A DNA stretch of 64,000 bases from a virus. The notes below the pieces were generated by a model. It was not told the DNA's origin. It saw only the letters and a list, made by a program, of their open reading frames with translations, and made no database searches. The stretch lies in IMG/VR virus record IMGVR_UViG_3300021085_002380. One strand, 5' to 3'. A program made the position numbers and the translations under genes. The stretch's first letter is position 1, and each line of letters opens with the position of its first letter. Below are positions 5,800 through 52,738 of this stretch, in pieces.

Positions 5800-6465
5800 T
5801 TAGGATCCTTTCTTATAAGTCGACTTTGTATCAATAGCCACGAAATACGTGACGTCTTCACCTTTAAATTCAGAGATACCTTTACTTGACAGCGTAACTC
5901 TGTAATCTTGAGGTAAGAGTTTCAAATTATCAGTTTTGATAATAATCTTAAACTCATCGGCAGTATTGCCAATTTCTACACCGTAGTCATCCGCTGCCGC
6001 AGACGAACTGTCGATGGCCTTTAGGTAACACTTTCCATCCTGGCCAACAAATGCAACTTCATTAAACTGAAGTACACCCGCTGCTTTTTGGACGGATTGT
6101 AAATCATTCCAAGATACATCAACAACCACATCAGCCGAAGGCAATTCAATGGTTTTTTCAGGCGCCGCGTGTATCATGGAGACGTCGGCAAACGCGTAAC
6201 GGGTACGTTGTTTACCTTCTGTGATTACAAAGTATTTATCATGAAACTCCACGTCTGGTGCAGTGTGGAGTGACAAAATTGATAAAAATCTTGACAAATC
6301 GTAAATACATGCTTCAGACGGAAATTGATCTGGGATTGTTGCAGATGCAATCAATGTTTTTTCAGGCGTAATAGTACGAAGAGTGTTACCTTGCTTCATT
6401 AGGATTGATTTGTTGATAGTAGAGAAACTCTTAAGAATAGTAAGAGTGCGTTCAGAAAATTTCAT
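5800..6465 (-). CDS. gp45: Sliding clamp gp45
   Basis: TILKSFSTINKSI, IYDLSRFLS, LKLLPQDYRV; synteny. Confidence 0.95.
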   Translation of the reverse strand: MKFSERTLTILKSFSTINKSILMKQGNTLRTITPEKTLIASATIPDQFPSEACIYDLSRFLSILSLHTAPDVEFHDKYFVITEGKQRTRYAFADVSMIHAAPEKTIELPSADVVVDVSWNDLQSVQKAAGVLQFNEVAFVGQDGKCYLKAIDSSSAAADDYGVEIGNTADEFKIIIKTDNLKLLPQDYRVTLSSKGISEFKGEDVTYFVAIDTKSTYKKGS

Positions 6466-6487: not shown

Positions 6488-7381
6488 TCATTTGTTAATT
6501 TTACTACGTTTTTTGGATTTTGTCAATGGTTTTTTGTAATTCTTTGCATTACTTTTTTTGTTAGCCGTTGGCGACGCGCCAAGCGATCCAAGCGCTGACA
6601 TATTACCATTAAACATATACGATCCTACGTGAGTCATTCTCATCCATGGACACATCCAAACTCGCTTCTGTATTTCTCTTGCCTTTTGACAAAAGAAGTA
6701 ATCTTCAGACAAATAACGGCGAGTCTTTGGGTCAATGATACAATCAAAGAATGCTGTAATGTCGCGCTCACCATCGAAGTTTTCAGTTCTTGCGTGGTCT
6801 GGCTTATATGACAATTCAGGGTACGCAGCTCGATAATCTTCAAATACTTTACGAGGAATCAACATAAATCCTGTACCTGCTTCACCAACTTCAAGAGGTT
6901 GATCCATCTTAAAACTAGTTACTCCACCCACTGGATTGAATACAAAGTCACCAGTAAATTCGTTGAGCTCAAAAGGATTTTCATCACCTTTACCTGCCTT
7001 TGCTGCCATTTGAACTTTTTCCCACGCAATAGTCTTTTTAGGATAAGGTCCAGTCAAAATGTCATACTTATCAGGATCTGAATGATATATTGCCATAAGT
7101 GAAATAACATCTCTTGGATTGAAACCAATATCAGAATCAATAAACATTAAATGGGTTGAGTCTGAGCGTAGGAATTCATCGACAATATAATTGCGAGCTC
7201 GCTGTACTAAACTTTCGTTAAAGAGATAATAAAACTTAATTGGAATTTTATTAGCCGTGCAGAGCATAGCAAGATCGTTACAGGCTTTTGTAAATAGTCC
7301 TGCGCATTGCCCGCCGTACATTGGCGTACCAACGAAGATTTTATATTGCTGTAAGTCTTCAATAGTTACGTTTAAATTCAT
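6488..7381 (-). CDS. GT-A fold (GT2-like) glycosyltransferase
   Basis: GTPMYGG, NESLVQRARN, MFIDSDI (DxD), GTGFMLI and LSEDYFFC. Confidence 0.8.
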   Translation of the reverse strand: MNLNVTIEDLQQYKIFVGTPMYGGQCAGLFTKACNDLAMLCTANKIPIKFYYLFNESLVQRARNYIVDEFLRSDSTHLMFIDSDIGFNPRDVISLMAIYHSDPDKYDILTGPYPKKTIAWEKVQMAAKAGKGDENPFELNEFTGDFVFNPVGGVTSFKMDQPLEVGEAGTGFMLIPRKVFEDYRAAYPELSYKPDHARTENFDGERDITAFFDCIIDPKTRRYLSEDYFFCQKAREIQKRVWMCPWMRMTHVGSYMFNGNMSALGSLGASPTANKKSNAKNYKKPLTKSKKRSKINK

Positions 7382-8013
7382 GTTGTCACCTGTTCTAAAT
7401 CTTCCTCAGCCCTACGAATTGCTTGCATACGTAATACATCAGCTAAAATATCCCACGAGCTGTCGTGAGCTTTAAACATCTGTTCCCAACGTTGTTCGTC
7501 AGCAAATGGAATAAACCCATTCTTTTGCTTAAAATCAAACTTTGCATCAATATAAGTACGTGTATCGCGGACTGCCCAATACTTTAAGTACTCTTCCATA
7601 TGTAATAGTTTATCTTGTGATTGAAATAACCGACCAAGAATAATCGGATCAAACGTATTTGACCTAGACCACCATTTGCTAATCTTTGGTGAGTCAATTA
7701 AAAAGTCATGAAATTGCTTAGTGAAATCCGCCACAGTCAAATCAGTTGGAAGTGGTTTGATATTCCTACGAACTTCAGGTCCTAAGGATTCCCACCATGC
7801 AACTGTGCTTTTGTCAATTTCCCATCCGTAGTTTTTAACTTGATCTACCACGGATAGTTTAAATCGTTTTGTTTTTGAAATATCTGCAAGGGTATATGGA
7901 TCAGCTGAAACCATCTTGTCCCAACTGAATACCATTACAGAACAATCAATCACTGCGCATTTCTGAGCATCTTTACCGAATGTTTCAAAATCTATAATAA
8001 AGTCGTGTTTCAA
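7378..8013 (-). CDS. dexA: DexA-like 3'-5' exonuclease (DnaQ fold)
   Basis: IIDFET, FDPIIL, RDTRT and HDSSWD DEDDh motifs. Confidence 0.8.
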   Translation of the reverse strand: MKHDFIIDFETFGKDAQKCAVIDCSVMVFSWDKMVSADPYTLADISKTKRFKLSVVDQVKNYGWEIDKSTVAWWESLGPEVRRNIKPLPTDLTVADFTKQFHDFLIDSPKISKWWSRSNTFDPIILGRLFQSQDKLLHMEEYLKYWAVRDTRTYIDAKFDFKQKNGFIPFADEQRWEQMFKAHDSSWDILADVLRMQAIRRAEEDLEQVTT

Positions 8014-9221
8014 GCCATGAACTCCTCAAGTGTTGCTTGGTTGTTTTTACCGCCTGGATCAGACCACATGCGTTCATTGTGGTTGTCCTGACGATGGTAA
8101 TTAGTATCTGACATTGTTAACTCGCCACGAATAAACTTGCCGATTTCAGTATGAATATCTCTTGACGTTGGCACAGGAACGTTTTGAGCAATGTGGTTCA
8201 TTTTAGGTAATCCGCCAACAAGCTCAAAGTCATGAGGGAAACCCATAAGATATAAAGCTTCACGGATAGTTAAAGAACGATCGAACTTTGGATGAATTGT
8301 ATCTGCAAGGTTACGGCCGATAACTGCGTTCATACATTCTCCAAAGACGTGAGTTGAACTATCCCAAATACCTTTGCCCATCGCAAACTTTTTAACAGCA
8401 TGGTCTGATACTTTGATACCACGTTCGTTGCCAGTATCATGCATCCATTTATTACAGGCAGGTAATTTGCCACTTTTATTAATATAGTTGAATGCTGTAA
8501 TCTGTCCGCTTTCCATAATGACCTTACGAGGATCTTCGTTTGTTATTGACTTAATGTATTGATAATAAGGTTCTTCATCAAGCTTTTTGTTACACAATAT
8601 ATCCATTTGTTGAATATCATCTGTTAAGTCGTTAAGATATTCATGAAACTTTTTACGAGGTCGTTTATACCAATTCATAATAGGAGCAACTTCTGAGTTC
8701 CAACCAATAGCAAAACAACGATCTCTAGCTTGTGGGATACCATGATACTTTGTAGATGTTTTATATAGAGTTAAACTATACCCTGCTTTTGAGCAAATGT
8801 CAAACAAATTATCAGCTACTTCTTTACCCTTTTTAGTAAACAACGCCGGAGCATTTTCAACAACAATAGCTTTAGCTGAAAAGCGATTAATGCCTTCTTT
8901 AAAAACTTCGTACATCCATTCGTTCTTTTCGCATTTTGCGCCTTTGGCTGCTTCAGTCTTACCAGTGTTAAGCTGTGACAATGCTGCACAAGGTGGCGTA
9001 CCTGAAATAACACTGATATGTCGACTTGAACTTTCAGGAATCATTTTATATTGTACATCACGTCCTTTGACGTTTTGCTGATAGTTAACGTAATGACTAT
9101 CATTTCCTTCAAAGTCCGCGTATGAATATATAGCTTCAGGTGGTTTTCCAAAAGCTTTTTCTGCTCCTAGCATTTGTCCACCGATTAGTGGAATAATTGG
9201 GGCCCATGTAATTTCGCTCAT
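8010..9221 (-). CDS. DNA cytosine-C5 methyltransferase-like protein with atypical motifs I and X
   Basis: GTPPC (IV), VENAP (VI), PQARDR (VIII), LTIREA..LMGFP (IX); start MSEITW after a GAGG RBS. Confidence 0.85.
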   Translation of the reverse strand: MSEITWAPIIPLIGGQMLGAEKAFGKPPEAIYSYADFEGNDSHYVNYQQNVKGRDVQYKMIPESSSRHISVISGTPPCAALSQLNTGKTEAAKGAKCEKNEWMYEVFKEGINRFSAKAIVVENAPALFTKKGKEVADNLFDICSKAGYSLTLYKTSTKYHGIPQARDRCFAIGWNSEVAPIMNWYKRPRKKFHEYLNDLTDDIQQMDILCNKKLDEEPYYQYIKSITNEDPRKVIMESGQITAFNYINKSGKLPACNKWMHDTGNERGIKVSDHAVKKFAMGKGIWDSSTHVFGECMNAVIGRNLADTIHPKFDRSLTIREALYLMGFPHDFELVGGLPKMNHIAQNVPVPTSRDIHTEIGKFIRGELTMSDTNYHRQDNHNERMWSDPGGKNNQATLEEFMA

Positions 9222-9231
9222 TTTATATCCT

Positions 9232-10488
9232 CTATGCAAAAAAGTCTTCAAGTGTCGCAGCTTTTGTCTTTGTAAACTGTGCTGTATCAGGTCTTGTATA
9301 ATTTGGGTCTGCAGCTTTCATAATGTTATCATTAATGAAGCTACCGTCATAATATTCAGGTTTAAGAATTGCTTTACGCAGTCCTTTTAAAACCGTTTCA
9401 TATTCTGTTGGGTTGTCAATTAGTCGTTGCATATTCGTATAAAATTCTTCAGGCGTTTTTGGCCGTAAGAAATCAGGAATAGGCAAATGACCTTGGTCGT
9501 CATAAGTTGGGTGAAGGAAAGGAATAACACCAGCGTGAATCATTTCAATATATTTTGATGTGGTCCAGCCTTCTTTAATTGGAATAATAAATGTAAACTT
9601 AACGTCTTGTAATTTATCTTGGATTTCATTGATATGCAATGATCCTTTAAACCTTTCATCACTTTCAGCGCGTTCGTCAAGCCACTTACCATATATATCA
9701 ACATTATCGAATTTATCAAGTACCCAGTTCTTGAGTAAGTTATAGCGTGATGGTTTACCTTCATTAAGTACAACCATAAAGTCTGTCTTGCGATCTGTAT
9801 TTACTTCTTCAGTGTATTCATAATCGCCACAAAACGCAGTTTCCATTCCTGCATATTCAGAATGAACAACGCGGACTAGCCTTTCTTGGTTTTCATAATC
9901 AGTAATAGAAAATGTTTCATAATCGTAATCATATTGTCCAAGAGAACGGAAAGGCATATGAAATACGTCACGTGGTTGTTTAATAACATATCTTGGATCG
10001 TTAACAACTTCTATCCAACGCGGCTTACTTTCGTTTAGCCATTTAGTAATAGGAGTTGTATACCATTTAGTCATATCAAGAGTTGCTGCTGGTTTACCGT
10101 CTTGTTGGCTTTCACGTACTTTCCAAATTTTATCTGGGATTGTGACATTACTAATTTGCCCAATCATCATAACAGAAAAATCAAGCTCAATGTTTTTAAA
10201 ATAATTAATGATGTGATTATAATATGCTTCGGACATTGCCAACGGAACGCCTTGCCAACAATCAATTACATTATCATATGGAAACAAATTTAGGCGTTCA
10301 GTATCAGACAGCGCAGCAAAGTCAGAACGACCAATTAGGTAAAAAGTTTTGTCCGGATTATTGTTTGCCATAGCTCGTATGGTACAAGACGCTTCGTTAT
10401 CTCCACCAATTGGAGAGTACTTGTTAGTTTTAAATTTAATAGATTTACCAATTTTTGCGAAACCAATGTTTTTCATAATCACTTCCAT
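9232..10488 (-). CDS. GT-B fold glycosyltransferase, probably DNA-modifying (BGT-like)
   Basis: NDPR, IYGKW and TSKYIEMIHAGVIPF; genomic context; clamp-binding-like C-terminus TLEDFFA. Confidence 0.65.
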   Translation of the reverse strand: MEVIMKNIGFAKIGKSIKFKTNKYSPIGGDNEASCTIRAMANNNPDKTFYLIGRSDFAALSDTERLNLFPYDNVIDCWQGVPLAMSEAYYNHIINYFKNIELDFSVMMIGQISNVTIPDKIWKVRESQQDGKPAATLDMTKWYTTPITKWLNESKPRWIEVVNDPRYVIKQPRDVFHMPFRSLGQYDYDYETFSITDYENQERLVRVVHSEYAGMETAFCGDYEYTEEVNTDRKTDFMVVLNEGKPSRYNLLKNWVLDKFDNVDIYGKWLDERAESDERFKGSLHINEIQDKLQDVKFTFIIPIKEGWTTSKYIEMIHAGVIPFLHPTYDDQGHLPIPDFLRPKTPEEFYTNMQRLIDNPTEYETVLKGLRKAILKPEYYDGSFINDNIMKAADPNYTRPDTAQFTKTKAATLEDFFA

Positions 10489-10844
10489 TCCATCATCTTA
10501 ACAAACTCTTCAGGAGTCATTGCTTTATCATCAATATAATATACACCGTATGGTTTACCCCACACAATTTCATCATAAGGTACTTCGTACTTATCCAACC
10601 AGTCTGTGGTTATTTTTCCGACGTCATTAATAATTTTATTTATGTCACCGTCATGAGTGAGCATTCGCCGCGCGGTATGGAGTACAATGCGATATCCGTT
10701 TTTCTTTGCTTTTTGTAAACTTGCAATCATTGGGCGATTAGGATTTGCCATCCCATACTTAACTTCAGATTCAGATCTGCCGTGCAACGGCGTGCAAATC
10801 GTATCATCAATATCAACTACTAAGGTTTGCGTATTCATTAACAT
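10479..10844 (-). CDS. HAD-family phosphatase (capsule biosynthesis EcbF/BcbF-like)
   Basis: VDIDDTIC, LHTARRM, GKP and YIDDKA. Confidence 0.85.
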   Translation of the reverse strand: MLMNTQTLVVDIDDTICTPLHGRSESEVKYGMANPNRPMIASLQKAKKNGYRIVLHTARRMLTHDGDINKIINDVGKITTDWLDKYEVPYDEIVWGKPYGVYYIDDKAMTPEEFVKMMEWK

Positions 10845-12294
10845 AATCTCTCATTCTTTGTTGGCGTTCTTCACAGTCATAGTGAAGTTTAATGCATGTA
10901 GCAATTAACAGAGCGCCGCCGTCAATAATTTCATTATAATCATCAGGAAAGTACTCTTTGACTAATTCAGAAAAGCATTCCCGTACTGCTGTGGGGTATT
11001 TATGCCCTGTCACCAACTCGTTATATCCATGATATAAATCGTGCGACAACTTACACATATCGTAAAGATAATCACCACCGATACCTCTATGATCGCCATA
11101 GGATCCGCGTGGATCTAATAACGTAAAGGCATCATTATATGGATTATATAGAATATTACCAAAGTGTAAGTCACCGTGCATAGCATCAACAGGACGTGCC
11201 TTTTGTAAACAACGCTCAGCAACATTTTTATAAAACGGATCATCTGTTTCTAAACGCTGTTCAGTTTTATCAATCCACATCTTCTTTGCGTTATCAGGAA
11301 ACGACGCTGTAAATTCAAGTGTTGGTTTGCGATGAAAGTGGTTCCACATTGTAAGTATAACTCTTTCAATCAAATAGCGTATAGTGCTTTTCGATATATC
11401 TTCATGTGCAAATAAATCAGATAGCAAAATGCCTGACTCATAAGACATGGTCAGGGAATAGTCATCTTTCAATACTTTAGGAACAAGCATACTTTGGATT
11501 GGTGATAACGAAGTATACCAATTCTTTTCATCAATAATTGTTTGAGTGGCAAAACTGTTATTTGGTGTTGGTACCTTCGTAATCATATTGAGATCAGGGT
11601 GGTATTCGAACGAATTAAACTCTCTCGCTTTAAACGTCAATAGTGTAGCACAAGTTTTGTGGTATGAAGCAATATCACCAATGTCGTACCATTTTTCCGT
11701 GTTGATATTATCAAATGAAGCGTGTTCTTCATATAACTCCAAAGCATCTGATATGTCATAACCTTTTGAGTAGTGAAAAGCGTGATATGCTTCGTATCCT
11801 CTACTGAAACTGTATAGACCTACAAGAGCTGAAGCTTGGTCAATATTTTCTTTTGGTTTATTAAAGTATTTTTTACCATCCCACATGCACCAAGCAAAGT
11901 GATCTTCAACTTCTTTTGTTAATAAAAAGTCAGTGCCTAAAGGTAATTCTTCTTCAAGAATAATTGCATCTCCTAGCCATACAACTAAAGGATATGTAGG
12001 ATTTTCTAAATTTTTAATACCAACATTAATAGCATCACGAGGACCGTTAAGAGATCCTTGTTTTACACACTTAATGTTATCGTATTTAGATTTTTTAACC
12101 CAGTCACGAATATCGTCATGCTTACCGTCGACTATAACAATTTGGCTTACTTCGACACCGCTTTTATTAATTGACTCAACGATATATTCAATAGTAGGTT
12201 TACCATGTACGCGGATCATTGCCTTTGAGCAATTTGCAGTTAGTGGCTTTAGTCTTGTTGCCTCACCTGCCGCCGGTATTACTACATTTATCAT
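10813..12294 (-). CDS. Sugar nucleotidyltransferase fused to an APH/choline-kinase-like phosphotransferase
   Basis: N-term IPAAGEATRLKPLT..SKAM and WYDIG; C-term HGDLHFGNIL and LDPRG. Confidence 0.85.
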   Translation of the reverse strand: MINVVIPAAGEATRLKPLTANCSKAMIRVHGKPTIEYIVESINKSGVEVSQIVIVDGKHDDIRDWVKKSKYDNIKCVKQGSLNGPRDAINVGIKNLENPTYPLVVWLGDAIILEEELPLGTDFLLTKEVEDHFAWCMWDGKKYFNKPKENIDQASALVGLYSFSRGYEAYHAFHYSKGYDISDALELYEEHASFDNINTEKWYDIGDIASYHKTCATLLTFKAREFNSFEYHPDLNMITKVPTPNNSFATQTIIDEKNWYTSLSPIQSMLVPKVLKDDYSLTMSYESGILLSDLFAHEDISKSTIRYLIERVILTMWNHFHRKPTLEFTASFPDNAKKMWIDKTEQRLETDDPFYKNVAERCLQKARPVDAMHGDLHFGNILYNPYNDAFTLLDPRGSYGDHRGIGGDYLYDMCKLSHDLYHGYNELVTGHKYPTAVRECFSELVKEYFPDDYNEIIDGGALLIATCIKLHYDCEERQQRMRDYVNEYANLSS

Positions 12295-12925
12295 AATTTA
12301 ATCTCCACTCGTCGTATTCATCTTCAAGCAATGCCCAACGCATTTTAGTTAATCCTGGCGGATACTTTTTATTCCAAATAAACCAAGCGTATGCAATCAT
12401 GCCGCCGATCTGATCTTTCTTTTCAATTGGTTCTACGATATTAGAATCAAATCTAACTCGATCTGATAAAAATATTATATCACTAGGAGGGTTAGATGTA
12501 AATAGTTTATTTCGTTTTTTTCCTTCAAGAAATGTTAAACGAAGAAACATAGCTACATATTCATATTCGTCAATCCACTTTTCAGCTAACTTACGTGGTA
12601 AGTCTTTGTGATATGGCGGATTAGTTACTACACCTTGAGCCCATTCATTCTTAGGTAATTCCATTGCATCATAAGAAGTATTTATGCTACATAAAGAATC
12701 GGAATATTCGTTGAGATCATAACTTAAAACATTGTGACCATTCCGTGCAAGCTCGACCGAAATGTTACCACGGCCAGCGCAGGGTTCAAGTAAATTTTGT
12801 GGAGGTTTACCATACTTACATAATATGTATGTAGCAAGTGGTGGTGTTGGATAAAAGTCATTCTTTTTACGATTAGGATCGTTTTTCTTAACGCCAACAT
12901 ATATATCAGTCAGATTATTAGCCAA
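12263..12925 (-). CDS. DNA N6-adenine (amino) methyltransferase
   Basis: DFYPTP, LEPCAGRG, VTNPPY and YAWFIW. Confidence 0.85.
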   Translation of the reverse strand: MANNLTDIYVGVKKNDPNRKKNDFYPTPPLATYILCKYGKPPQNLLEPCAGRGNISVELARNGHNVLSYDLNEYSDSLCSINTSYDAMELPKNEWAQGVVTNPPYHKDLPRKLAEKWIDEYEYVAMFLRLTFLEGKKRNKLFTSNPPSDIIFLSDRVRFDSNIVEPIEKKDQIGGMIAYAWFIWNKKYPPGLTKMRWALLEDEYDEWRLNYDKCSNTGGR

Positions 12926-13427
12926 ACTGCGTTACCAATACACCTGCCTCTTTAAACATAGGCTCCGATTTTTCATTCCACAGGTTAACCCATTTTTCTG
13001 GAGTATTCATTACGAATTTGTTAATAACAATTCTACGAATGCCTGCTTGGATAATAAGCTTAGTACAGTCAGGACACACAGGTAATCCATGAACATACAT
13101 TGTTGCATTTTTTAGAGAAACGCCAGCGTAAAGAGCATTCATCAACGCATTTGTTTCAGCATGAACAATAAGCGGATATTTTTGTTCTCTATCGTTTAGT
13201 CTTTCTTGACTATCTTCAATACCCTTTGGGAAACCGTTATATCCTGTTGCCAAAATACGACGCTCATCGTTAACCGCAACTGCACCAATTTTGCTTGAAG
13301 GATCTTTACTCCAAGTTGAAATGTGGTGAGCCATAACCATAAAGCGATCATCCCATTTCAACTGGCGAATATCTTCTTCTCGGCCGCGCCGCCGCATATA
13401 TGCCTCGTAAGGCTCACGTTCTTCCAT
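12918..13427 (-). CDS. cd: dCMP deaminase
   Basis: WSKDPS, TGYNGFP, HAETNA and CPDC. Confidence 0.95.
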   Translation of the reverse strand: MEEREPYEAYMRRRGREEDIRQLKWDDRFMVMAHHISTWSKDPSSKIGAVAVNDERRILATGYNGFPKGIEDSQERLNDREQKYPLIVHAETNALMNALYAGVSLKNATMYVHGLPVCPDCTKLIIQAGIRRIVINKFVMNTPEKWVNLWNEKSEPMFKEAGVLVTQFG

Positions 13428-13445
13428 AATATAATCTTTCAGTTT

Positions 13446-13727
13446 TTAATCGGTTACTTCTACGACAGATACAACTCTTGTTACTGGTATTCCATCAACA
13501 TGCCATACATTTAATTCCAAATCCCATACGCCAATTCTGTAATCTGCACTTGCTGGAGGGTTAGGTAAACGATGGCGTTTATCCTCTGGAATCAGTTCTG
13601 GTTTTAACGTAACTTCGCACGATCTTGTAGTGCTAGGCGTATCTGCATGAGTTTTTGAACTTTTGTTCCAAGTCACAAGAAATTTACCTTCTTTAAGTTT
13701 AGCTTTTAGTCTCGGTTTTGTCCACAT
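13446..13727 (-). CDS. Small SH3/Sm-like beta-barrel protein (WYL_2-like)
   Basis: TL..ELIP...VWDLE..W pattern. Confidence 0.5.
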   Translation of the reverse strand: MWTKPRLKAKLKEGKFLVTWNKSSKTHADTPSTTRSCEVTLKPELIPEDKRHRLPNPPASADYRIGVWDLELNVWHVDGIPVTRVVSVVEVTD

Positions 13728-13950
13728 TATTGTTTCCTAACATAATAGTTTTGTCCTCCATCTGTTCTTTAAAATCAACAACCCTTTCCTTTTCAATCAT
13801 ATCAATGATTAGTGTTGTGATATCAAGATCCTTTTTGAGGAAGAACATTTTGTTTTGTATTTTTTCAAGTTGCTTCTGGTAATATTCAATTTCTTTTTCT
13901 TTACGAAGCCGCGTCTCAATAATATCAGAAATAAGAATCAGTTTACTCAT
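13699..13950 (-). CDS. Coiled-coil hypothetical protein
   Basis: ORF in operon. Confidence 0.6.
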   Translation of the reverse strand: MSKLILISDIIETRLRKEKEIEYYQKQLEKIQNKMFFLKKDLDITTLIIDMIEKERVVDFKEQMEDKTIMLGNNNVDKTETKS

Positions 13951-13955
13951 GTTAT

Positions 13956-14648
13956 TTATACAACCAAGTCAAAGTGGCGCTCATATACGTGCAAATTCAT
14001 AGCTTGCCATGTAAGCATACCTTTATCAATAGTGAAGTGTTTATTGCCAGGAAGTTTACATTGTTCATTCCATTGAGCAACAAACTTATCCATAAGATAT
14101 TGAGCCCAAGCATAGTCGTTTTTATAGCCAAAGATTGCGTCGTTAGAACGCATTTGTGACACCATCATCAGAATGCCATCGCGGATATAAAACGTTTGTG
14201 CATTAGTGCAAATAAAGTCAGACTTACCACCTTCATCAAACTCAACCCAAATAGATGGACGATTGTAAATCATTTGAGCACGACGGCTATCAGGGTTACT
14301 CCACAGTTCATCAAAAGCATTTTGGAATTGGTTATGATATTTTTTAGAGAATACTAAATGACCATAATTAGAATTAATATTACCATAATCATCAGCAGAG
14401 TATTTCCATGCCGCAGGCGGAGCTTTGATTTTGCCATGAATATCATAGATATTTGTTGATTGCGACTCATACCAAGCAAGCTCAGAGTTAATATAAGCTT
14501 GACTTGGTTCGCCAAAGATTGCAGGTTCTGTTGCAAGAAAGTTTGCGCCTATTAATTCAATAGTCCTTTGGCCTGTCTTATCAATTGTAAATGCTTCATC
14601 TTTGAGTTCACCTTTAAAGAATTCACGGATATCGTGTACACTATCCAT
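13956..14648 (-). CDS. gp42: dCMP hydroxymethylase-like thymidylate synthase homolog
   Basis: ELAWYES, INSNYG, SDFICTN, MRSNDAIFGYKNDYAW (Asp at the cytosine-specificity position), LHVYERHF; closely parallels T4 gp42. Confidence 0.9.
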   Translation of the reverse strand: MDSVHDIREFFKGELKDEAFTIDKTGQRTIELIGANFLATEPAIFGEPSQAYINSELAWYESQSTNIYDIHGKIKAPPAAWKYSADDYGNINSNYGHLVFSKKYHNQFQNAFDELWSNPDSRRAQMIYNRPSIWVEFDEGGKSDFICTNAQTFYIRDGILMMVSQMRSNDAIFGYKNDYAWAQYLMDKFVAQWNEQCKLPGNKHFTIDKGMLTWQAMNLHVYERHFDLVV

Positions 14649-14854
14649 TATGTATTCTCCTTTATAAAATTAACATTTTTAACATCTTGAATAAGTTTAA
14701 TTTCTTCTTCACGAACCCATCCTTCAACGAATTGATTAAGGAGAGATGTGCGAGAAAAGCCTTTACTATTGATTAAATCATCAAAGCGTTCTTTTAAATC
14801 AGTAGGAATATTAAAATTAATGAGTGTATAATCTTTTTTTGTTTTTGACATCAT
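14648..14854 (-). CDS. Ribbon-helix-helix (CopG-like) DNA-binding protein
   Basis: INFNIPTDLKERFD...SRTSLLNQFV. Confidence 0.65.
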   Translation of the reverse strand: MMSKTKKDYTLINFNIPTDLKERFDDLINSKGFSRTSLLNQFVEGWVREEEIKLIQDVKNVNFIKENT

Positions 14855-14896
14855 TCGTCTCCTTTATTAATAAAACGATCGTTAACAAGTCTAGGA

Positions 14897-15451
14897 TCAA
14901 TTCTCATTACGAACTCCATCTAAAAAATTTACAACGGTATCATATGTGTTACCTACTCCACCGTTCTTTGTTATATTTATGCTCAGCTTATGTTTACAAC
15001 TTGACTCGTTAAACGCCGTTGTAAACGCGTTACGACTATATAAGAAATCTTCTTTACTTTGTTCAAGACTTTCGCCATCATCACGAGACATAATACCATC
15101 AGTAGTATCAGTCAACAAAACTAATGCAGCGTTTTTGTACCCACTGAGAAACCTTCGGTCCAATTCATAAATGTCTTTGCCGTCTGCAGCACGGTACTTT
15201 TCGCCATAAACGATTGCGCCGAGATGGAAACGGTCAAAGATAATATCATAATTCATTTGATTTACGAGTCGTTTGGATGCAATGAACAAAGACTCATAAT
15301 GTTCTTTTTCCCAACCATTAGGATCTTCAAAGTCAGGAGGAGAAGATGAATGGTGAGCCATTATGTTTGGATTTTTAAAATATTTTTTACGTAGGTTTTG
15401 CACCAATGTGGATTTACCACAGCGATCCATACCTTCAATGATTAATAGCAT
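14897..15451 (-). CDS. dNMP/thymidylate kinase-like protein
   Basis: IIEGMDRCGKST P-loop; FDRFHL. Confidence 0.85.
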   Translation of the reverse strand: MLLIIEGMDRCGKSTLVQNLRKKYFKNPNIMAHHSSSPPDFEDPNGWEKEHYESLFIASKRLVNQMNYDIIFDRFHLGAIVYGEKYRAADGKDIYELDRRFLSGYKNAALVLLTDTTDGIMSRDDGESLEQSKEDFLYSRNAFTTAFNESSCKHKLSINITKNGGVGNTYDTVVNFLDGVRNEN

Positions 15452-15975
15452 TCTCTTTGGCCTCTCCCTTTAATTTCACGATTAAGTAATGGCTGATAAT
15501 TATTTATAGTTGCAGTTTCAATAAGTTCTGCCATACCTTCAATATCAAACTTATCAGTATTAATATATTTTATCACAATATCTATAGAATGTAAATCATT
15601 TTCTTGTAAAAACTCACGATATTTACGCCCTGAAGACTCGTGTCTTTCATGCGGCGTTGTAAAGCTACGCGCGTGGGAATATTGCCGTTTATGAATACTC
15701 GTTGAAGGTGCGTCTGTTTTACCAACATACATAACCTGATCTCCATGATACCACATGTATACGCCTTTGGCACTATTTGCATCAATAGATCTACCACTCC
15801 TTTTAGGAGGAACAATATGATTAACTTGATAACGATCTTCGTCGTAATATCCGCTACCTAAATCTCTAAGTTCAATAGTACCATAAGTTTCAGCCTCAGA
15901 CCAATAGGAATCAATTTTGTCAAAGACTTCAGTACGAAGTAAAGATGCGAGATTTTTGATAGCAGATTTACACAT
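15442..15975 (-). CDS. GIY-YIG nuclease (EndoII/DenA-like layout)
   Basis: GVYMWY...MYVGKT, conserved R, IE...I..YQPLLN. Confidence 0.75.
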   Translation of the reverse strand: MCKSAIKNLASLLRTEVFDKIDSYWSEAETYGTIELRDLGSGYYDEDRYQVNHIVPPKRSGRSIDANSAKGVYMWYHGDQVMYVGKTDAPSTSIHKRQYSHARSFTTPHERHESSGRKYREFLQENDLHSIDIVIKYINTDKFDIEGMAELIETATINNYQPLLNREIKGRGQRECY

Positions 15976-17956: not shown

Positions 17957-18562
17957 CTACTTTATTCCTTTTACAAAATATTGGCTATATTCCCTACGCC
18001 CAAGGTCATCCTCGTATAGGAAAGTCATTTTGTTTGTATCAATAACCTTTGAAAGACCAGCTTGCTCTATAAGATCATCGCACGATCTTATCAAGTTAAT
18101 ATGACCACGTTTAGTTAAATCGCATCCGCTCAATACGCATAATTTATTATTTGGTATTACCTTTTTCATATGGTAACTATGTTCACAGCTTGTATTGATA
18201 TAGACGTCTGCCTCAGGAATGTTCTTATAATCAAAAGTAACATCCATCATCATATGGCACCAAGGCCCTTCAGTGTTAGTAAGATTAGAAATTTCTTCTG
18301 TAATAGGATCCATGTCTATTAACCTGGTGTATGTTGCGCCTTTTTCTATACAAAAAGATAATGCATAGGCACCAAGGCCAGAGTTTAAAATGTTTACTTG
18401 TTTTCCAGAAACGTCAGCATTGTCTATACACCATTTCTGTATTTCATATTCTGAAACAGAAACTTGCTCGCGCATAGTATCATAAAACCACGGAAAGTCG
18501 TGCTGCCAAAGGTGAAGGTCATGCAAACGCGAAATACGTTCAGCTTCAGGTTCTTTAGTCAT
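17957..18562 (-). CDS. Class I SAM methyltransferase-like protein (INTSCEH type)
   Basis: ILNSGLG, LIDMDP and YINTSCEH; paralog of 23700-24368. Confidence 0.6.
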   Translation of the reverse strand: MTKEPEAERISRLHDLHLWQHDFPWFYDTMREQVSVSEYEIQKWCIDNADVSGKQVNILNSGLGAYALSFCIEKGATYTRLIDMDPITEEISNLTNTEGPWCHMMMDVTFDYKNIPEADVYINTSCEHSYHMKKVIPNNKLCVLSGCDLTKRGHINLIRSCDDLIEQAGLSKVIDTNKMTFLYEDDLGRREYSQYFVKGIK

Positions 18563-19292
18563 CTACGTATTGCCGTTTTTCATCGTGTGTTAAACCTTCA
18601 AGCATATTAATAATTCCTAGCTTATCGTTTTCTTTTAGTTTACGCTGAGTTGTAACTATACCTTCATCATAGTGCTGAAAATGGTTTCTTCTATTGCTAT
18701 AACTATACGGACCAAATTGATGAAACATAAAAGTGTCCATAGAAGGATAAGTAAAAAAGCACTCGTCTAAATTATTTGAAACAAAATCATATATTGGTTT
18801 ATTTTGTCCTGGCTTCCATACCATTACTGAACTGTTGAATAAAGGGCAGCGTGTGATATGGTATTGCCGTTTCCATTCTTCGCCATCATTACCTTCGTAC
18901 CAATAGTTACGAACTAAATATGGTTTTTCATTATTGAGTTCTTCAAAGAAATATGCAAGATCGCCGAGGATGTTTGTATCTAAATCTAAATACAGTAACG
19001 TATCTTCAGGATTAAACTTTTTATCAGCTTCAAACATAGTAAGTTTTCTGAAGTGTGGTATTCCGCCGAAGTCATCTCTGTGATAGCCATTTTGCGTTGT
19101 TTCAACTCTATGGGTTTGCTCCTTTGAAGCTCGGTAGTGTTTAGATTTATAATGATCCCAGGAGTCATCTAGGTTGTCAAAGCATTCAAACTCAAAATCA
19201 ACACTGCAGTTTCGTTTAGCATTCTTGTATAAAGAAGTTACATCATCTTCTGTATATAAGTTTCCCCATTTTGCGCATACGATTCTAAACAT
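18555..19292 (-). CDS. GT-A glycosyltransferase
   Basis: KWGNLY, LYLDLD (DxD) and FNSSVMVW; paralog of 24343-24960. Confidence 0.75.
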   Translation of the reverse strand: MFRIVCAKWGNLYTEDDVTSLYKNAKRNCSVDFEFECFDNLDDSWDHYKSKHYRASKEQTHRVETTQNGYHRDDFGGIPHFRKLTMFEADKKFNPEDTLLYLDLDTNILGDLAYFFEELNNEKPYLVRNYWYEGNDGEEWKRQYHITRCPLFNSSVMVWKPGQNKPIYDFVSNNLDECFFTYPSMDTFMFHQFGPYSYSNRRNHFQHYDEGIVTTQRKLKENDKLGIINMLEGLTHDEKRQYVDD

Positions 19293-19995
19293 CTATATGC
19301 TTCAACACGTATTCAAGTTTTTCAGATTTCTTTTTTCCGTATAAATGCCAAAAGCCAGCCTTTTTATCTTCATTAGTCCAAGGCCTGTCTGTAATGTCGT
19401 CTAAAATATGGTTGTAATAAAACGAAAGCCTTTCTGGTTGTATATTGTTTTCGTTTAACCAATCGCCAACAGTAAGCATATTAGGATGCATTTGAATAGG
19501 TTCATCGTGTACAATATAATTCTTAAAACGGTTAAAGAGGTATTCGCCGAGATCCATGGCGGCCGACTTTGTCATTACTTGAACGCCTCCGTATATAGCC
19601 TTAAATGTTTTTGGATCTTTGCCTCTTTTTCTTAAGTCTTCTTCTTTCCATGGAGCTCCGGCGATATATTTTGTTTCAGGAAAAGGTGCAGCATTTTGTG
19701 TAACATAAAAGTCAGAGTCAGGGAACACAAAAAAATCTATATCTTCATCTTTATGTTTAAGAGCTGCAAGGTATTGGTGATATAAATTACCATGCTCATC
19801 GCCGTATTTTTCATTGGCCATTTCTATAATTTCAAGCTGTTCCTTATAAACAACATGTTTATAGTTATGTCTTTTACAATATCTAGCATAAGATGGTATA
19901 AGAACATTATCATAAAGTTCTGTTAAACTTTCGTTAGGCTCAAGACCAAGCCAAGTACCTGTACCAATAAAAGATTGTATAACAATATATTTCAT
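19285..19995 (-). CDS. Glycosyltransferase-like protein (GT-A)
   Basis: YC.RHNY.H, FPDSDF (DxD), YGGVQV and WHLYG. Confidence 0.6.
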   Translation of the reverse strand: MKYIVIQSFIGTGTWLGLEPNESLTELYDNVLIPSYARYCKRHNYKHVVYKEQLEIIEMANEKYGDEHGNLYHQYLAALKHKDEDIDFFVFPDSDFYVTQNAAPFPETKYIAGAPWKEEDLRKRGKDPKTFKAIYGGVQVMTKSAAMDLGEYLFNRFKNYIVHDEPIQMHPNMLTVGDWLNENNIQPERLSFYYNHILDDITDRPWTNEDKKAGFWHLYGKKKSEKLEYVLKHIDV

Positions 19996-20730
19996 TTAGC
20001 CTAAACCCAATCTATTCATTTCATCGAGAGCGTCTTGTCGTATAGCTCTTAAAATTATACCTCTTCGAACTACATCAGATTTGTTTGGCATAACACTATG
20101 TAATGTGTTTCCATAAAAGCACATAAATCTTCCTAGCTCAATTGTTTCTTGTATGCAGTTATCTTCAAAAAATCTATCATAAGGACTTGGTTCACTATCA
20201 GGCCTTAACATATCTTTTGGATTGTATTTGTATTTATGAGTGCCTGGAACATATCCAGTAGATCCGTTTTCCGGAGTAAATTCTATAAGTGGTACCATAA
20301 ACGTAATACTTAGCGGACCTTCTTGTAAATAATTATCCATTCTCAATTCTGGCATTTGTGGCCAAACATAAGGAGCATCTAAATGAATTCTTACAGGACA
20401 TTCATGTTTACAATTGGATATGATATAACGATTAGTTAGCTGCCATCCCCAAGACGTTTTAAACACTTCGTTACAAACATTTTCTAATGCTGGGAATATA
20501 GTATTATTGATGTAAGTATTATCTTCAGGAATTTGAGACCAATAATAAGCCCAGTCAGGATTTACTATATCTTTTACTTTATCGTTATTGATCCAATCAA
20601 AGTTTTGAAGCATTCCAACAAAAGGAGATAGATTACCTGCAATATCATTCAAGGAAAGGATTTTGGTTTCGTCAAATACCTTTCCTGAAATGGCAAAGCC
20701 ATCATCTTTTAAATCAAATAAGTTTACCAT
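19996..20730 (-). CDS. PhyH-family 2OG-Fe(II) dioxygenase
   Basis: HLDAPY (HxD), ENGSTGYVPGTH and LHSVMPN.S..R. Confidence 0.85.
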   Translation of the reverse strand: MVNLFDLKDDGFAISGKVFDETKILSLNDIAGNLSPFVGMLQNFDWINNDKVKDIVNPDWAYYWSQIPEDNTYINNTIFPALENVCNEVFKTSWGWQLTNRYIISNCKHECPVRIHLDAPYVWPQMPELRMDNYLQEGPLSITFMVPLIEFTPENGSTGYVPGTHKYKYNPKDMLRPDSEPSPYDRFFEDNCIQETIELGRFMCFYGNTLHSVMPNKSDVVRRGIILRAIRQDALDEMNRLGLG

Positions 20731-21278
20731 TTTACTATATAATAATTTTCGTTGAGTGGTTCTATTATTGGATTGTATTCTTTGAGCTCAAACTGCAATT
20801 GTTCTTTTGTGTAGAAGTAGCAGTTTTCATCAAAGCCATCTTTATACCATTCGCCATAAAATACAAAGAATGCGTGGTTGGCATTAAACGCTTTATAATG
20901 GTCTAACAGTTTAGGCAATCCAATATAGTTAGGTGTACCAAACATACTAACTAATACATTACACTCATTGTCAATTGGTTTACTGCAATCCGCTAATTCA
21001 AATTTATAGTCTGGATACTTTTTCTTAGCGTTATTTAACATACCTTCTGATATGTCATATCCTACAAAATAACTTGGGTGAGGCATATTCAAAATAGGAA
21101 TATCTTGTCCTGATCCAACACCTAAAGAAATAATCTTGCCAGGAGATTTTCTTTTCATCCAAAATTTATGAGCATCGTATTCGTCTTTCATGTATGGATT
21201 TGTTTCCCATCCACCTTCTACATATTTTTGTTCGTACCACGCTGAAGCTTCGTCATACTTATCTTTTAAAGTTACCAT
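20724..21278 (-). CDS. Class I SAM-dependent methyltransferase
   Basis: SLGVGSG, GYDISEGML and ADC. Confidence 0.85.
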   Translation of the reverse strand: MVTLKDKYDEASAWYEQKYVEGGWETNPYMKDEYDAHKFWMKRKSPGKIISLGVGSGQDIPILNMPHPSYFVGYDISEGMLNNAKKKYPDYKFELADCSKPIDNECNVLVSMFGTPNYIGLPKLLDHYKAFNANHAFFVFYGEWYKDGFDENCYFYTKEQLQFELKEYNPIIEPLNENYYIVKW

Positions 21279-21952
21279 CCTATATCACCATATTTCATTA
21301 TTGCATCGTCTGTCATTTCGTCAAGTGTTGTGCCTTGCTCGTTATCTAATTGTTTATATCCCCATTCTAATTCTCTACATCCCATACAGTCTTCGCAAGG
21401 AGTATCAGCACTAATGTTACAAGAGATAGTATGGTTTAAAATAGAATCAAAGTTACCTCTTCTAGCTAAATCAATTATATGATATTTTTCAATATGCTCA
21501 AAAGGATTTTTAAGAAAAGAGTCGTTCGTTAACCAGGGTCTTTTAGCAATACCTCTTTGCTCAGGATTCCATCTTGGAAACCATTGAGGATGCGGTGTTA
21601 ATATATTACCACAATAAAGTTCTTCGCAATCTGTATTATCTCGTATTTCCTGAAAAGCTCTACAGAGTCTAGGATAATGAGATGTCATAGGCCAGTGCCA
21701 ACGGCTTTGACCAACTATTTCCAACTCTGTTGAAACGTTTAATTTTTTAAGAATGTTTTCTATTAGTGGTTTGTGAGGATCTTCGCTAGTTTGAACATTA
21801 AATATTCTTATCTTTGTATCCGGAAAGTTATCCGTTAATAATTTAAAAAGAGTGGTACTATCAGCGCCAGAGGACATTAGAACACCGATCTTTTTAGCTG
21901 GGGATAAATTTACAATCCTTTCATCCCACTGCGGTCCACACACAAATTTCAT
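21272..21952 (-). CDS. QueC-like PP-loop ATPase
   Basis: SSGADS PP-loop; PF....K; TISC...PCEDCMGC Zn site. Confidence 0.75.
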   Translation of the reverse strand: MKFVCGPQWDERIVNLSPAKKIGVLMSSGADSTTLFKLLTDNFPDTKIRIFNVQTSEDPHKPLIENILKKLNVSTELEIVGQSRWHWPMTSHYPRLCRAFQEIRDNTDCEELYCGNILTPHPQWFPRWNPEQRGIAKRPWLTNDSFLKNPFEHIEKYHIIDLARRGNFDSILNHTISCNISADTPCEDCMGCRELEWGYKQLDNEQGTTLDEMTDDAIMKYGDIGW

Positions 21953-21954
21953 AA

Positions 21955-30112: not shown

Positions 30113-30125
30113 GTTATAATCACCT

Positions 30126-31073: not shown

Positions 31074-31082
31074 GAGTTTTCC

Positions 31083-31268: not shown

Positions 31269-31292
31269 GTCTTTTCTCCTATCAGATATTTA

Positions 31293-52680: not shown

Positions 52681-52706
52681 GTACAGTTCCTTCCATTTAT
52701 AGAACT

Positions 52707-52735: not shown

Positions 52736-52738
52736 TAG

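What the first reader, a model, noticed from the sequence alone, without database searches (positions are those of the whole stretch)
6488..15975. Complete cytosine hypermodification island with its own sugar-activation module
Seen, directly upstream of gp45: GIY-YIG nuclease, dNMP kinase, RHH regulator, gp42-like enzyme, dCMP deaminase, amino-MTase, nucleotidyltransferase-kinase fusion, HAD phosphatase, GT-B, C5-MTase-like protein, DexA and GT-A. Known: T4 glucosylates hmC using host UDP-glucose, while RB69-type phages encode extra NDP-sugar genes for a non-glucose sugar. Inference: this phage makes its own NDP-sugar and attaches an unusual mono- or disaccharide (two GT folds are present) to hmC or hydroxy-C. 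The modified base may be undescribed.
Basis: partly seen in the sequence, partly recalled or inferred. Interest (0 to 1): 0.82.

Follow-up and report, generated by a model that had tools for sequence, protein, structure and literature searches.

The report
Clamp-tethered hmC sugar-modification island
A marine T4-like phage carries genes to make hydroxymethylcytosine DNA, build its own activated sugar and attach it with enzymes that appear to ride on the replication clamp; this is a new combination of known parts, and the modified base itself is still unidentified.

Summary
The gene list is real: eleven of the twelve named functions were confirmed by profile, motif or predicted fold. Only the RHH call stays weak.

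What the evidence adds:
- **Base.** The thymidylate-synthase homolog matches T4 gp42 at all 14 active-site positions, including D169. The base is therefore 5hmC, not the 5-hydroxycytosine of RB69.
- **Sugar donor.** The nucleotidyltransferase-APH-kinase fusion and the HAD phosphatase are distant homologs of the RB69/HY126 AfhE/AfhF pair. No arabinose-5-phosphate isomerase was found in about 92 kb of this genome.
- **GT-B.** Its closest solved fold is T4 beta-glucosyltransferase (Z 21.8).
- **Clamp tails.** The GT-B and the C5-methyltransferase-like protein end in the same peptide as this genome's own DNA polymerase (TLEDFFA / TLEEFMA). This predicts docking on gp45.
- **Relatives.** They keep the core of the island. 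Some swap the donor cassette, add a second GT-B, or carry a group I intron in the methyltransferase-like gene.

"Complete" is overstated. The candidate dCTPase lies next to the polymerase, and the GIY-YIG, RHH and small ORFs are not conserved. The GT-A occurs well beyond hmC phages.

The sugar and the role of the methyltransferase-like enzyme are unknown. First readers of this scan noted look-alike islands in at least five other genomes. Verdict: a new variant of a known kind.

The parts
13956..14648 (-). T4 gp42-type dCMP hydroxymethylase (makes 5hm-dCMP)
   Evidence: PF00303. 44% identical to T4 gp42. All 14 active-site positions equal T4 gp42: D143, C146, D169, D177, W80, Y94, G173, Y209 and others. 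Lacks the D169N signature of 5-hydroxy-dCMP synthases (PMC13326640).
14897..15451 (-). TMPK-like nucleotide kinase; inferred to convert hm-dCMP to hm-dCDP
   Evidence: P-loop EGMDRCGKST. PF02223 1.5e-7, TIGR00041 2.8e-7. 51% identical homolog beside the TS gene in L008. A TMPK-like kinase sits in the same position in RB69, DLP3 and Enterococcus phage 9183 clusters.
12918..13427 (-). dCMP deaminase (T4 cd-like)
   Evidence: PF00383 2.9e-21, phrog_174 1.7e-46. Conserved next to the TS gene in L008, L012 and L013.
12263..12925 (-). Amino (N6-A or N4-C) DNA methyltransferase
   Evidence: phrog_799 8.4e-42. Motifs EPCAGRG and NPPY. Conserved in L008 and L012.
10813..12294 (-). Bifunctional sugar-1-P nucleotidyltransferase (N-terminal) and APH-like sugar kinase (C-terminal); AfhE-like
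   Evidence: PF00483 1.3e-13. PAAGEATRLKP and HGDLHFGN motifs. LicC 1jyk 1.3e-7. APH-like features. tblastn to NTase-kinase genes of Klebsiella, Proteus and Escherichia Straboviridae, about 22% identity, E to 4e-10.
10479..10844 (-). HAD phosphatase, AfhF-like (inferred to remove the distal phosphate of a sugar bisphosphate)
   Evidence: DIDDT motif. TIGR01689 capsule phosphatase 4e-23, phrog_1238 6e-23. Homologous to RB69 gp51, E 2e-7.
9232..10476 (-). BGT-like GT-B DNA glycosyltransferase with a C-terminal clamp-binding-type tail (tail codons plus stop at 9232-9258)
   Evidence: AF2 pLDDT 91.8. Foldseek top hit T4 BGT, 2.5e-8. VIA Z 21.8, rmsd 3.6, 312 aligned; next GT-B 19.1; HY126 GT 17.7. 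BFVD hit 'DNA beta-glucosyltransferase', 9e-28. Tail ATLEDFFA equals the polymerase tail. 110 of 117 homologs keep the tail.
8010..9221 (-). C5-cytosine-methyltransferase-like enzyme with a clamp-binding-type tail (8010-8036); chemistry unknown
   Evidence: PF00145 86 bits. Motifs GTPPCAA, ENAPAL, QARDR and QNVPVP conserved in 113 homologs. Motif I reads IPLIGG and no motif II acid is seen. Tail QATLEEFMA. 50% identical partner in the XG4 cluster. Split by a group I intron in relatives.
7378..8013 (-). DexA-like 3'-5' exonuclease
   Evidence: PF16473 1.6e-14, phrog_255 1.1e-31. Conserved in L008, L013 and L012.
6488..7381 (-). GT-A fold glycosyltransferase with a basic disordered tail; possibly a second DNA glycosyltransferase, not specific to this island
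   Evidence: AF2 pLDDT 85.8. STIV A197 E 3e-8, Z 16.5, rmsd 2.6. DxD at D82/D84, invariant in A4. More than 7,915 homologs. Present in DLP6, Cr30 and phiM12.
5800..6465 (-). gp45 sliding clamp, the predicted docking platform
   Evidence: PF09116 3.9e-17. 30% identical to RB69 gp45.
15442..15975 (-). GIY-YIG nuclease (EndoII/Eco29kI-like or homing endonuclease); accessory
   Evidence: GVY...YVG motif. RE_Eco29kI 1.2e-4, below cut-off. No homolog in related islands.
13446..13950 (-). Two small ORFs (93 and 83 aa) of unknown function
   Evidence: Only phrog_1086, 2e-4, for the 93-aa ORF. No homolog in relatives.
14648..14854 (-). 68-aa ORF, weakly RHH/Arc-like
   Evidence: ParG 0.0047, Arc-like phrog_582 0.0015. 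Not conserved in relatives.

Best explanation
This is the early-gene DNA-hypermodification island of an uncultured marine T4-like myovirus.

1. Shown by sequence: a folate-type, T4 gp42-like enzyme makes 5-hydroxymethyl-dCMP.
2. Inferred: a TMPK-like kinase carries it on towards the triphosphate, a dCMP deaminase balances the pools, and a MazG-like dCTPase encoded beside the polymerase removes dCTP. The polymerase therefore writes 5hmC instead of C.
3. Inferred from homology to AfhE/AfhF and from the heptose-type logic: the APH-like kinase domain phosphorylates C1 of a host sugar phosphate. The HAD phosphatase removes the distal phosphate. The N-terminal nucleotidyltransferase turns the sugar-1-phosphate into an NDP-sugar.
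4. Inferred from fold, position and tail: a BGT-like GT-B transfers that sugar onto 5hmC in duplex DNA while held on the gp45 clamp by a C-terminal peptide identical to the polymerase's own.
5. A conserved C5-methyltransferase-like enzyme has an intact covalent-catalysis core, a divergent cofactor pocket and the same kind of tail. It acts on the same nascent DNA, but its chemistry is unknown.
6. The GT-A next to gp45 may add a further sugar.

The likely purpose is escape from restriction, CRISPR and other DNA-targeting defences. Swapped donor cassettes among relatives point to diversifying selection on the glycan.
For: - **hmC.** The TS homolog is 44% identical to T4 gp42. All 14 active-site positions equal gp42 in the window and in relatives L008, L012 and L013, whereas RB69 gp48 differs at W80A, Y94N, D169N, G173V and Y209F. 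D169N is the published marker of 5hoC synthases (PMC13326640).
- **Donor module.** Intact NTase, APH-kinase and HAD motifs. There is homology to the NTase-kinase genes that lie in the arabinosylation clusters of Straboviridae (in Biddle_MM4 the hit lies about 3 kb from the TS homolog) and to RB69 gp51. The published mechanism of AfhE/AfhF was read.
- **GT-B.** Best solved match is T4 BGT (Z 21.8, against 19.1 for the next fold). The DNA glycosyltransferases of HY126 and T4 AGT also match.
- **Clamp tails.** This genome's own polymerase (L010 is 100% identical to window 51907-64000) ends NTLEDFFA. The GT-B ends ATLEDFFA and the methyltransferase-like protein ends ATLEEFMA.
- **Tail conservation.** The tail is kept in 110 of 117 GT-B homologs and across 113 methyltransferase-like homologs. 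In L013 the polymerase carries it as well, and in L012 the GT-B and the methyltransferase-like protein do.
- **Precedent.** T4 alpha-GT binds gp45 (PMC13216743).
- **Synteny.** The order TS, cd, N6-methyltransferase, donor cassette, GT-B, C5-methyltransferase-like, DexA, GT-A, gp45 is kept in L008, L012 and L013. XG4 keeps TS, HAD, NTase-kinase, GT-B and C5-methyltransferase-like.
- **dCTPase candidate.** A PRA-PH protein next to the polymerase.
Against: - No chemistry was measured, and no isolate of this phage exists.
- Profile similarity of the GT-B to T4 BGT is weak (hhalign E 0.0047, probability 7.5%), so the link rests on the predicted fold.
- The NTase-kinase is only about 22-25% identical to Straboviridae and XG4 counterparts, so its substrate cannot be read from the sequence.
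- No arabinose-5-P isomerase or other sugar-tailoring gene is in the island, in the roughly 92 kb of this genome examined, or in the related loci. The product could be ordinary UDP-glucose.
- A C5-methyltransferase in DNA expected to have every C5 already substituted is unexplained.
- The GT-A family is far wider than the hmC module.
- The genome also encodes many other sugar genes that could use the donor.
Confidence: 0.62

Rival explanations
1. Ordinary glucosyl-hmC with a self-supplied donor. The kinase, phosphatase and nucleotidyltransferase only convert host glucose-6-P to UDP-glucose, for hosts that are poor in UDP-glucose. The DNA then carries the same beta-glucosyl-5hmC as T4, so the base is not new.
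For: The best structural match of the GT-B is T4 BGT with UDP-glucose. The NTase domain hits GalU/RmlA-type glucose-1-P nucleotidyltransferase models. No isomerase, epimerase or dehydratase lies in the island or nearby.
Against: All NTase profile hits are far below their family cut-offs. A close relative (L013, GT-B 62% identical) replaces the cassette with a HAD-kinase fusion plus a HIGH-type cytidylyltransferase-like enzyme, which suggests that donors differ between relatives. The characterised homologs of the cassette make UDP-arabinofuranose, not UDP-glucose.
Confidence: 0.2
2. The sugar module and the glycosyltransferases serve a non-DNA target such as virion proteins or the host envelope. 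The DNA carries bare 5hmC, perhaps with some methylation.
For: The genome is rich in other glycosylation genes: the radical-SAM and methyltransferase operon at 17957-32270, and a sulfotransferase, GT32 and GT25 operon downstream. The GT-A family is widespread in phages that lack the GT-B (DLP6).
Against: The GT-B carries the polymerase's clamp-binding peptide, and this is conserved in 110 of 117 homologs. Its best fold matches include three DNA glycosyltransferases. The genes are embedded among replication and nucleotide-metabolism genes and keep synteny with the hmC synthase across relatives.
Confidence: 0.1
3. RB69/DLP3/HY126-type system: arabinosylated 5-hydroxycytosine made by a flavin-dependent TS homolog.
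For: The same cassette architecture is present (NTase-kinase, HAD, TMPK-like kinase, GT-B) and there is detectable homology.
Against: The TS homolog keeps D169 and the folate-site residues and is 44% identical to T4 gp42, against 28% over a partial alignment to RB69 gp48. No arabinose-5-P isomerase was found.
Confidence: 0.04

Closest known systems
T4 hmC glucosylation (gp42, gp1, gp56, alpha-GT/beta-GT)
   Same: gp42-type dCMP hydroxymethylase with an identical active-site signature. dCMP deaminase and DexA are present. The GT-B's best fold match is beta-GT. The island sits among replication genes. T4 alpha-GT is known to bind gp45 (PMC13216743).
   Different: T4 takes UDP-glucose from the host and has no donor-synthesis genes. 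Here a kinase, phosphatase and nucleotidyltransferase cassette is encoded. The GT-B is not detectably GT63 by sequence and carries an explicit polymerase-type C-terminal clamp peptide, whereas T4 beta-GT does not bind gp45. A C5-methyltransferase-like partner is conserved. The nucleotide kinase is TMPK-like, not gp1-like.
RB69 / DLP3 / HY126 arabinosyl-5-hydroxycytosine system (Afh; PMC13326640; He et al. 2026, cited there)
   Same: NTase-APH-kinase fusion (AfhE-like) with a HAD phosphatase (AfhF-like), a TMPK-like kinase, a TS homolog and GT-B transferases in one early cluster of a T4-like phage. Sequence homology is detectable for the HAD and for the NTase-kinase.
   Different: The base precursor is 5hmC (D169 kept), not 5hoC (D169N, flavin). 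No arabinose-5-P isomerase is present. Identity is only about 22-29%. Clamp tails and a C5-methyltransferase-like gene are not reported there.
Phage MT + 5mYOX/TET + GT clusters (PMC8256090; bioRxiv 10.1101/2023.12.21.572611)
   Same: A C5-methyltransferase-family gene lies next to a DNA glycosyltransferase acting on 5hmC. The relative DLP6 has a Tet/JBP oxygenase at the equivalent place.
   Different: No TET/JBP gene is in this island. Here hmC comes pre-replicatively from a TS homolog, so the methyltransferase-like enzyme is not needed to make 5mC as a TET substrate, and its SAM motifs are divergent.
NDP-heptose pathway logic (GmhA / HldE or HddA / GmhB / HddC)
   Same: The same order of reactions is inferred: kinase at C1 of a sugar omega-phosphate, HAD phosphatase removing the distal phosphate, then a nucleotidyltransferase. 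The variant cassette in L013 (HAD-kinase fusion plus a PF01467 enzyme) mirrors HldE and GmhB.
   Different: No SIS isomerase is present. The kinase is APH-like, not a ribokinase-family or GHMP kinase. The product is unknown.

Membership tests
T4 gp42-type dCMP hydroxymethylase (folate-dependent TS superfamily) | TS fold with catalytic Cys146; N177D (dCMP specificity); L143D/E (water access) | tested here: met
   PF00303. C146, D177 and D143 in alignments A2 and the MAFFT run.
T4 gp42-type dCMP hydroxymethylase (folate-dependent TS superfamily) | D169 retained (against D169N in 5-hydroxy-dCMP synthases) | tested here: met
   MRSNDA in the window against MRSQNC in RB69 gp48. Criterion from PMC13326640.
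T4 gp42-type dCMP hydroxymethylase (folate-dependent TS superfamily) | Product is 5hm-dCMP | not testable with these tools
   Needs expression and LC-MS.
Flavin-dependent 5hodCMP synthase (RB69 gp48 / DLP3 gp80) | D169N signature | tested here: not met
   Asp at position 169.
AfhE/AfhF-type NDP-sugar module | NTase N-domain fused to an APH-like kinase C-domain, with an adjacent HAD phosphatase | tested here: met
   Pfam and motifs. Homology to Straboviridae NTase-kinases and to RB69 gp51.
AfhE/AfhF-type NDP-sugar module | Partner arabinose-5-phosphate isomerase (SIS) | tested here: inconclusive
   No homolog of RB69 gp55 in the window, in 28 kb of downstream genome or in six related loci. No SIS family among the called genes. 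About 59 kb of the 151.5-kb genome was not seen.
AfhE/AfhF-type NDP-sugar module | Product is UDP-arabinofuranose | not testable with these tools
   Needs an enzyme assay.
T4 beta-glucosyltransferase (GT63) | GT-B fold closest to BGT | tested here: met
   Z 21.8, rmsd 3.6, 312 residues aligned; top four hits are all BGT.
T4 beta-glucosyltransferase (GT63) | Sequence-profile membership | tested here: inconclusive
   hhalign E 0.0047, probability 7.5%, C-domain only. No Pfam hit for the window protein. PF13524 on a few homologs.
T4 beta-glucosyltransferase (GT63) | Glycosylates 5hmC in duplex DNA | not testable with these tools
   Needs an assay on T4gt DNA.
DNA (cytosine-5) methyltransferase (PF00145) | Catalytic motifs IV (PC), VI (ENV), VIII (QxRxR) | tested here: met
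   GTPPCAA, VENAPAL and PQARDR are invariant or nearly so in 113 homologs. PF00145 86 bits against a cut-off of 22.
DNA (cytosine-5) methyltransferase (PF00145) | SAM-binding motifs I (FxGxG), II (acidic), X (GNxVP) | tested here: inconclusive
   Read as IPLIGG, no conserved acid, and QNVPVP. PDB profile hits cover only motifs IV-VIII and IX-X. TIGR00675 58.6 bits, below its cut-off of 100.65. No fold or ligand test was run.
Sliding-clamp-binding C-terminal peptide (T4/RB69 gp43 type, PIP-like) | Extreme C-terminal hxxFF-type peptide shared with the cognate polymerase | tested here: met
   Polymerase NTLEDFFA, GT-B ATLEDFFA, methyltransferase-like ATLEEFMA in one genome. Conserved family-wide.
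Sliding-clamp-binding C-terminal peptide (T4/RB69 gp43 type, PIP-like) | Physical binding to gp45 | not tested
GT-A glycosyltransferase | GT-A fold with a DxD motif | tested here: met
   STIV A197 Z 16.5, LH3 GT domain Z 15.9. D82-S-D84 invariant.

The most novel reading that the evidence does not exclude
Hypermodification is coupled to the replisome. Both the glycosyltransferase and a repurposed C5-methyltransferase-fold enzyme ride on the gp45 clamp through the polymerase's own docking peptide. The methyltransferase-like enzyme, whose covalent-catalysis core is intact but whose SAM pocket is divergent, would perform a non-methyl reaction at C5 of 5hmC, for example exchange or elaboration of the hydroxymethyl substituent. 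Together with a phage-made, non-glucose NDP-sugar, this would yield an undescribed cytosine derivative that is widespread in marine myoviruses.
Probability: 0.15. Interest if true: 0.88.

Novelty: new variant of a known kind. Interest (0 to 1): 0.66.

Why it matters
Two published paradigms exist. T4 puts host UDP-glucose on 5hmC. RB69, DLP3 and HY126 put self-made UDP-arabinose on 5-hydroxycytosine. This island recombines them: a T4-type hmC synthase with an Afh-like donor cassette.

It also adds two features I did not find in the papers searched:
- DNA-modifying enzymes that carry the polymerase's clamp-docking peptide.
- A conserved C5-methyltransferase-like partner with a divergent cofactor site.

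The family is common in marine metagenomes, with 344 GT-B and 689 methyltransferase-like cluster representatives on contigs up to 258 kb. Its relatives swap the donor cassette and the number of glycosyltransferases. It is therefore a natural set of variants for finding new hmC glycoforms and for testing how modification is coupled to replication. It may also explain sequencing or cloning biases for abundant marine phages.

A cultured relative, Pseudoalteromonas phage vB_Psh_XG4, makes the chemistry directly testable.

Tried and rejected
- **Nucleotide search.** megablast of the island against 50,697 phage records found no match.
- **PDB by sequence.** Searches for the GT-B and GT-A found nothing useful.
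- **Whole genome.** The genome search 'own' holds no genome for this window. I walked the genome with the look-up of encoding contigs instead.
- **Clamp docking.** Complex prediction (gp45 trimer plus the GT-B tail) was tried five times and was unavailable, so no verdict exists.
- **Sequencing runs.** No read-level test for modified C was possible.
- **Promoters and terminators.** The scan gave counts no different from shuffles (42 against 43). Operon structure rests on overlapping or abutting ORFs only.
- **RB69-type 5hoC reading.** Rejected on D169.
- **GIY-YIG, RHH and small ORFs as core island parts.** Rejected, because they are absent from the related islands.
- **GT-A as dedicated to this island.** Rejected on its much wider distribution. 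The DLP6 arrangement (Tet/JBP, NTase-kinase, HAD, GT-A) still keeps a DNA role plausible.
- **RB69 comparisons.** BLAST of RB69 gp45 (kinase), gp46/47 (GT), gp50 and gp55 against the window gave no hits.

Full report
**Observation**

Window 5.8-16 kb carries a run of minus-strand genes that abut or overlap and end at the gp45 sliding-clamp gene.
- A thymidylate-synthase (TS) homolog, a dCMP deaminase, an NPPY amino-methyltransferase and a DexA-like exonuclease.
- A nucleotidyltransferase fused to an APH-like kinase, and a HAD phosphatase with an intact DxDxT motif.
- A 414-aa GT-B, a C5-methyltransferase-family protein (PF00145, 86 bits), and a 297-aa GT-A.
- The GIY-YIG motif is visible, but only a sub-threshold profile hit supports it.
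- The RHH call is weak.

**Which base**

Lee et al. (PMC13326640) showed that RB69-type phages make 5-hydroxycytosine with a flavin-dependent TS homolog. They showed that D169N (E. coli ThyA numbering) marks those enzymes, while N177D and L143D/E mark dCMP use.

I aligned the window protein with E. coli ThyA, T4 gp42, RB69 gp48 and relatives. It equals T4 gp42 at all 14 positions checked: W80, Y94, D143, C146, T147, M165, R166, S167, N168, D169, G173, D177, H207 and Y209. It is 44% identical to gp42 overall. RB69 gp48 differs at W80A, Y94N, D169N, G173V and Y209F. The same signature holds in three marine relatives and in Pseudoalteromonas phage XG4.

**Donor module**

The fusion protein has the sugar-1-P nucleotidyltransferase signature (PAAGEATRLKP) and the APH/choline-kinase catalytic motif (HGDLHFGN).
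- By tblastn it matches the NTase-kinase genes of Klebsiella, Proteus and Escherichia Straboviridae at about 22% identity (E to 4e-10). In Biddle_MM4 the hit lies about 3 kb from the TS homolog.
- The HAD protein matches RB69 gp51.
- In HY126 these proteins (AfhE, AfhF) convert arabinose-5-P through the 1,5-bisphosphate to UDP-arabinofuranose.

Here the third published component, the arabinose-5-P isomerase, is missing from the window, from 28 kb of downstream genome and from all related loci. The input is therefore probably a host sugar phosphate, and the product cannot be named.

A relative with a 62%-identical GT-B (L013) has a different cassette with the same three activities: a HAD-APH-kinase fusion plus a HIGH-type PF01467 nucleotidyltransferase. 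This suggests that donors vary within the clade.

**Glycosyltransferases**

- *GT-B.* The AF2 model (pLDDT 91.8) matches T4 beta-glucosyltransferase best (Foldseek 2.5e-8; VIA Z 21.8, rmsd 3.6, 312 residues). The next GT-B scores 19.1, and the HY126 DNA arabinosyltransferase and T4 alpha-GT score 17.7. In BFVD a protein annotated as DNA beta-glucosyltransferase is the second hit. Profile similarity to BGT is weak, so I call it BGT-like, not GT63.
- *GT-A.* The 297-aa protein has a GT-A fold (pLDDT 85.8; STIV A197 Z 16.5; DxD motif) and a basic disordered tail. Its family is much wider than the GT-B family (more than 7,915 homologs against 344). It occurs in DLP6, Cr30 and phiM12.
- *DLP6.* There the GT-A sits with a HAD, an NTase-kinase and a protein annotated "SNF2", which is in fact a Tet/JBP oxygenase (PF12851, 8e-19) ending KAATLGDFFV. 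A DNA role for the GT-A is therefore plausible but not specific to hmC.

**Clamp tails**

The GT-B ends ...KAATLEDFFA and the methyltransferase-like protein ends ...NQATLEEFMA. Locus L010 is 100% identical to window 51907-64000 and continues the same genome. Its DNA polymerase ends ...EKINTLEDFFA.

In T4 and RB69 the polymerase's C-terminal peptide docks on gp45 (established knowledge). T4 alpha-GT, but not beta-GT, binds gp45 (PMC13216743).

The tail is kept in 110 of 117 GT-B homologs and throughout 113 methyltransferase-like homologs. In L013 the polymerase carries it as well. In L012 the GT-B and the methyltransferase-like protein carry it; no polymerase was seen in that locus. XG4 and Enterococcus phage 9183 lack it. 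I infer that both enzymes are tethered to the clamp on nascent DNA. The complex prediction could not be run.

**The C5-methyltransferase-like protein**

The covalent-catalysis motifs (GTPPCAA, ENAPAL, QxRDR) and the TRD-proximal motifs are invariant. Motif I reads IPLIGG, no conserved motif II acid is visible, and motif X reads QNVPVP. The protein is below the NCBIfam dcm cut-off.

It is a constant partner of the GT-B: 50% identical in XG4, and present in L008, L012 and L013. In L008 and L012 the gene is split exactly at the GTPP|C codons by a group I intron (RF00028, 91 and 87 bits). That placement is typical of conserved, expressed phage genes. Its reaction in DNA whose C5 positions are already substituted is unknown.

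**What is not part of the island**

- The GIY-YIG, RHH and two small ORFs have no counterpart in relatives.
- The candidate dCTPase (PRA-PH/MazG-like) lies after the polymerase, about 3 kb beyond the window end.

"Complete" is therefore an overstatement.

**Context and novelty**

The phage belongs to the DLP6, phiM12, Cr30 and cyanophage branch of T4-like viruses. The family is abundant in marine metagenomes.

I found no paper that describes an hmC synthase combined with an Afh-like cassette, or clamp-peptide tails on DNA-modifying enzymes. First readers of this scan noted look-alike islands in at least five other genomes.

I classify it as a new variant of a known kind. The chemistry is open, and it is testable in the cultured relative XG4.

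Noticed in passing
L008:13404-13613 and L012:11513-11730 (relatives): A group I intron (RF00028, 91 and 87 bits) interrupts the C5-methyltransferase-like gene exactly at the catalytic GTPP|C codons. In L008 a SegE-like GIY-YIG/NUMOD3 endonuclease gene (12403-13176) lies just upstream. The window's copy has no intron.
   Followed up: partly
L009:9180-10526 (Stenotrophomonas phage DLP6, KU682439.2 27179-28525): The gene annotated 'SNF2 DNA repair protein' is a Tet/JBP 2OG-Fe oxygenase (PF12851, 8e-19) ending in the clamp-type tail KAATLGDFFV. It follows an unannotated HAD ORF and an NTase-kinase and lies upstream of a GT-A homolog and gp45. This suggests a post-replicative, clamp-tethered hydroxylation and glycosylation pathway in DLP6.
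   Followed up: partly
L013:8500-9976 (relative): An alternative donor cassette sits in the same slot: a HAD (DFDDT) plus APH-kinase (HGDFGVKN) fusion of 343 aa, and a 144-aa PF01467 cytidylyltransferase-like enzyme. The same three activities are partitioned differently.
   Followed up: partly
L006 (Enterococcus phage 9183, NC_055907.1 28004-32956): A Gram-positive siphovirus has TMPK, a TS homolog (D143, D169, D177, so predicted dCMP hydroxymethylase although annotated thymidylate synthase), dUTPase, HAD, NTase-kinase and a GT-B 30% identical to the window's. It probably carries glycosylated hmC too.
   Followed up: partly
window 17957-32270, minus strand: A long co-oriented operon with four radical-SAM enzymes (three with a SPASM domain, plus a free SPASM ORF), a PhyH dioxygenase, a class I methyltransferase and a QueC-like protein. 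It is separate from the hmC island.
   Followed up: partly
L010:15184-15594 (same genome, about 3.3 kb past the window end): A PRA-PH/MazG-like pyrophosphohydrolase (PF01503, 1.8e-9) lies directly after the DNA polymerase and is conserved there in L008, L012 and L013. It is the candidate dCTPase needed for full C replacement. An FkbM-type methyltransferase lies between gp46 and the polymerase.
   Followed up: partly
L010:19479-21105 and L017:12688-15422 (same genome, downstream): Heme oxygenase plus a ferredoxin-dependent bilin reductase. Further on lies a two-sulfotransferase, GT32-like and GT25 operon. The genome is rich in auxiliary and glycan genes.
   Followed up: no
L005:4238-5344 (XG4) and L008:11248-12369: A second putative GT-B (weak GT47/Glyco_trans_1_2 hits; the two are 30% identical to each other) sits between the GT-B and the methyltransferase-like gene in some relatives but not in the window. 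This suggests glycans of different length.
   Followed up: partly
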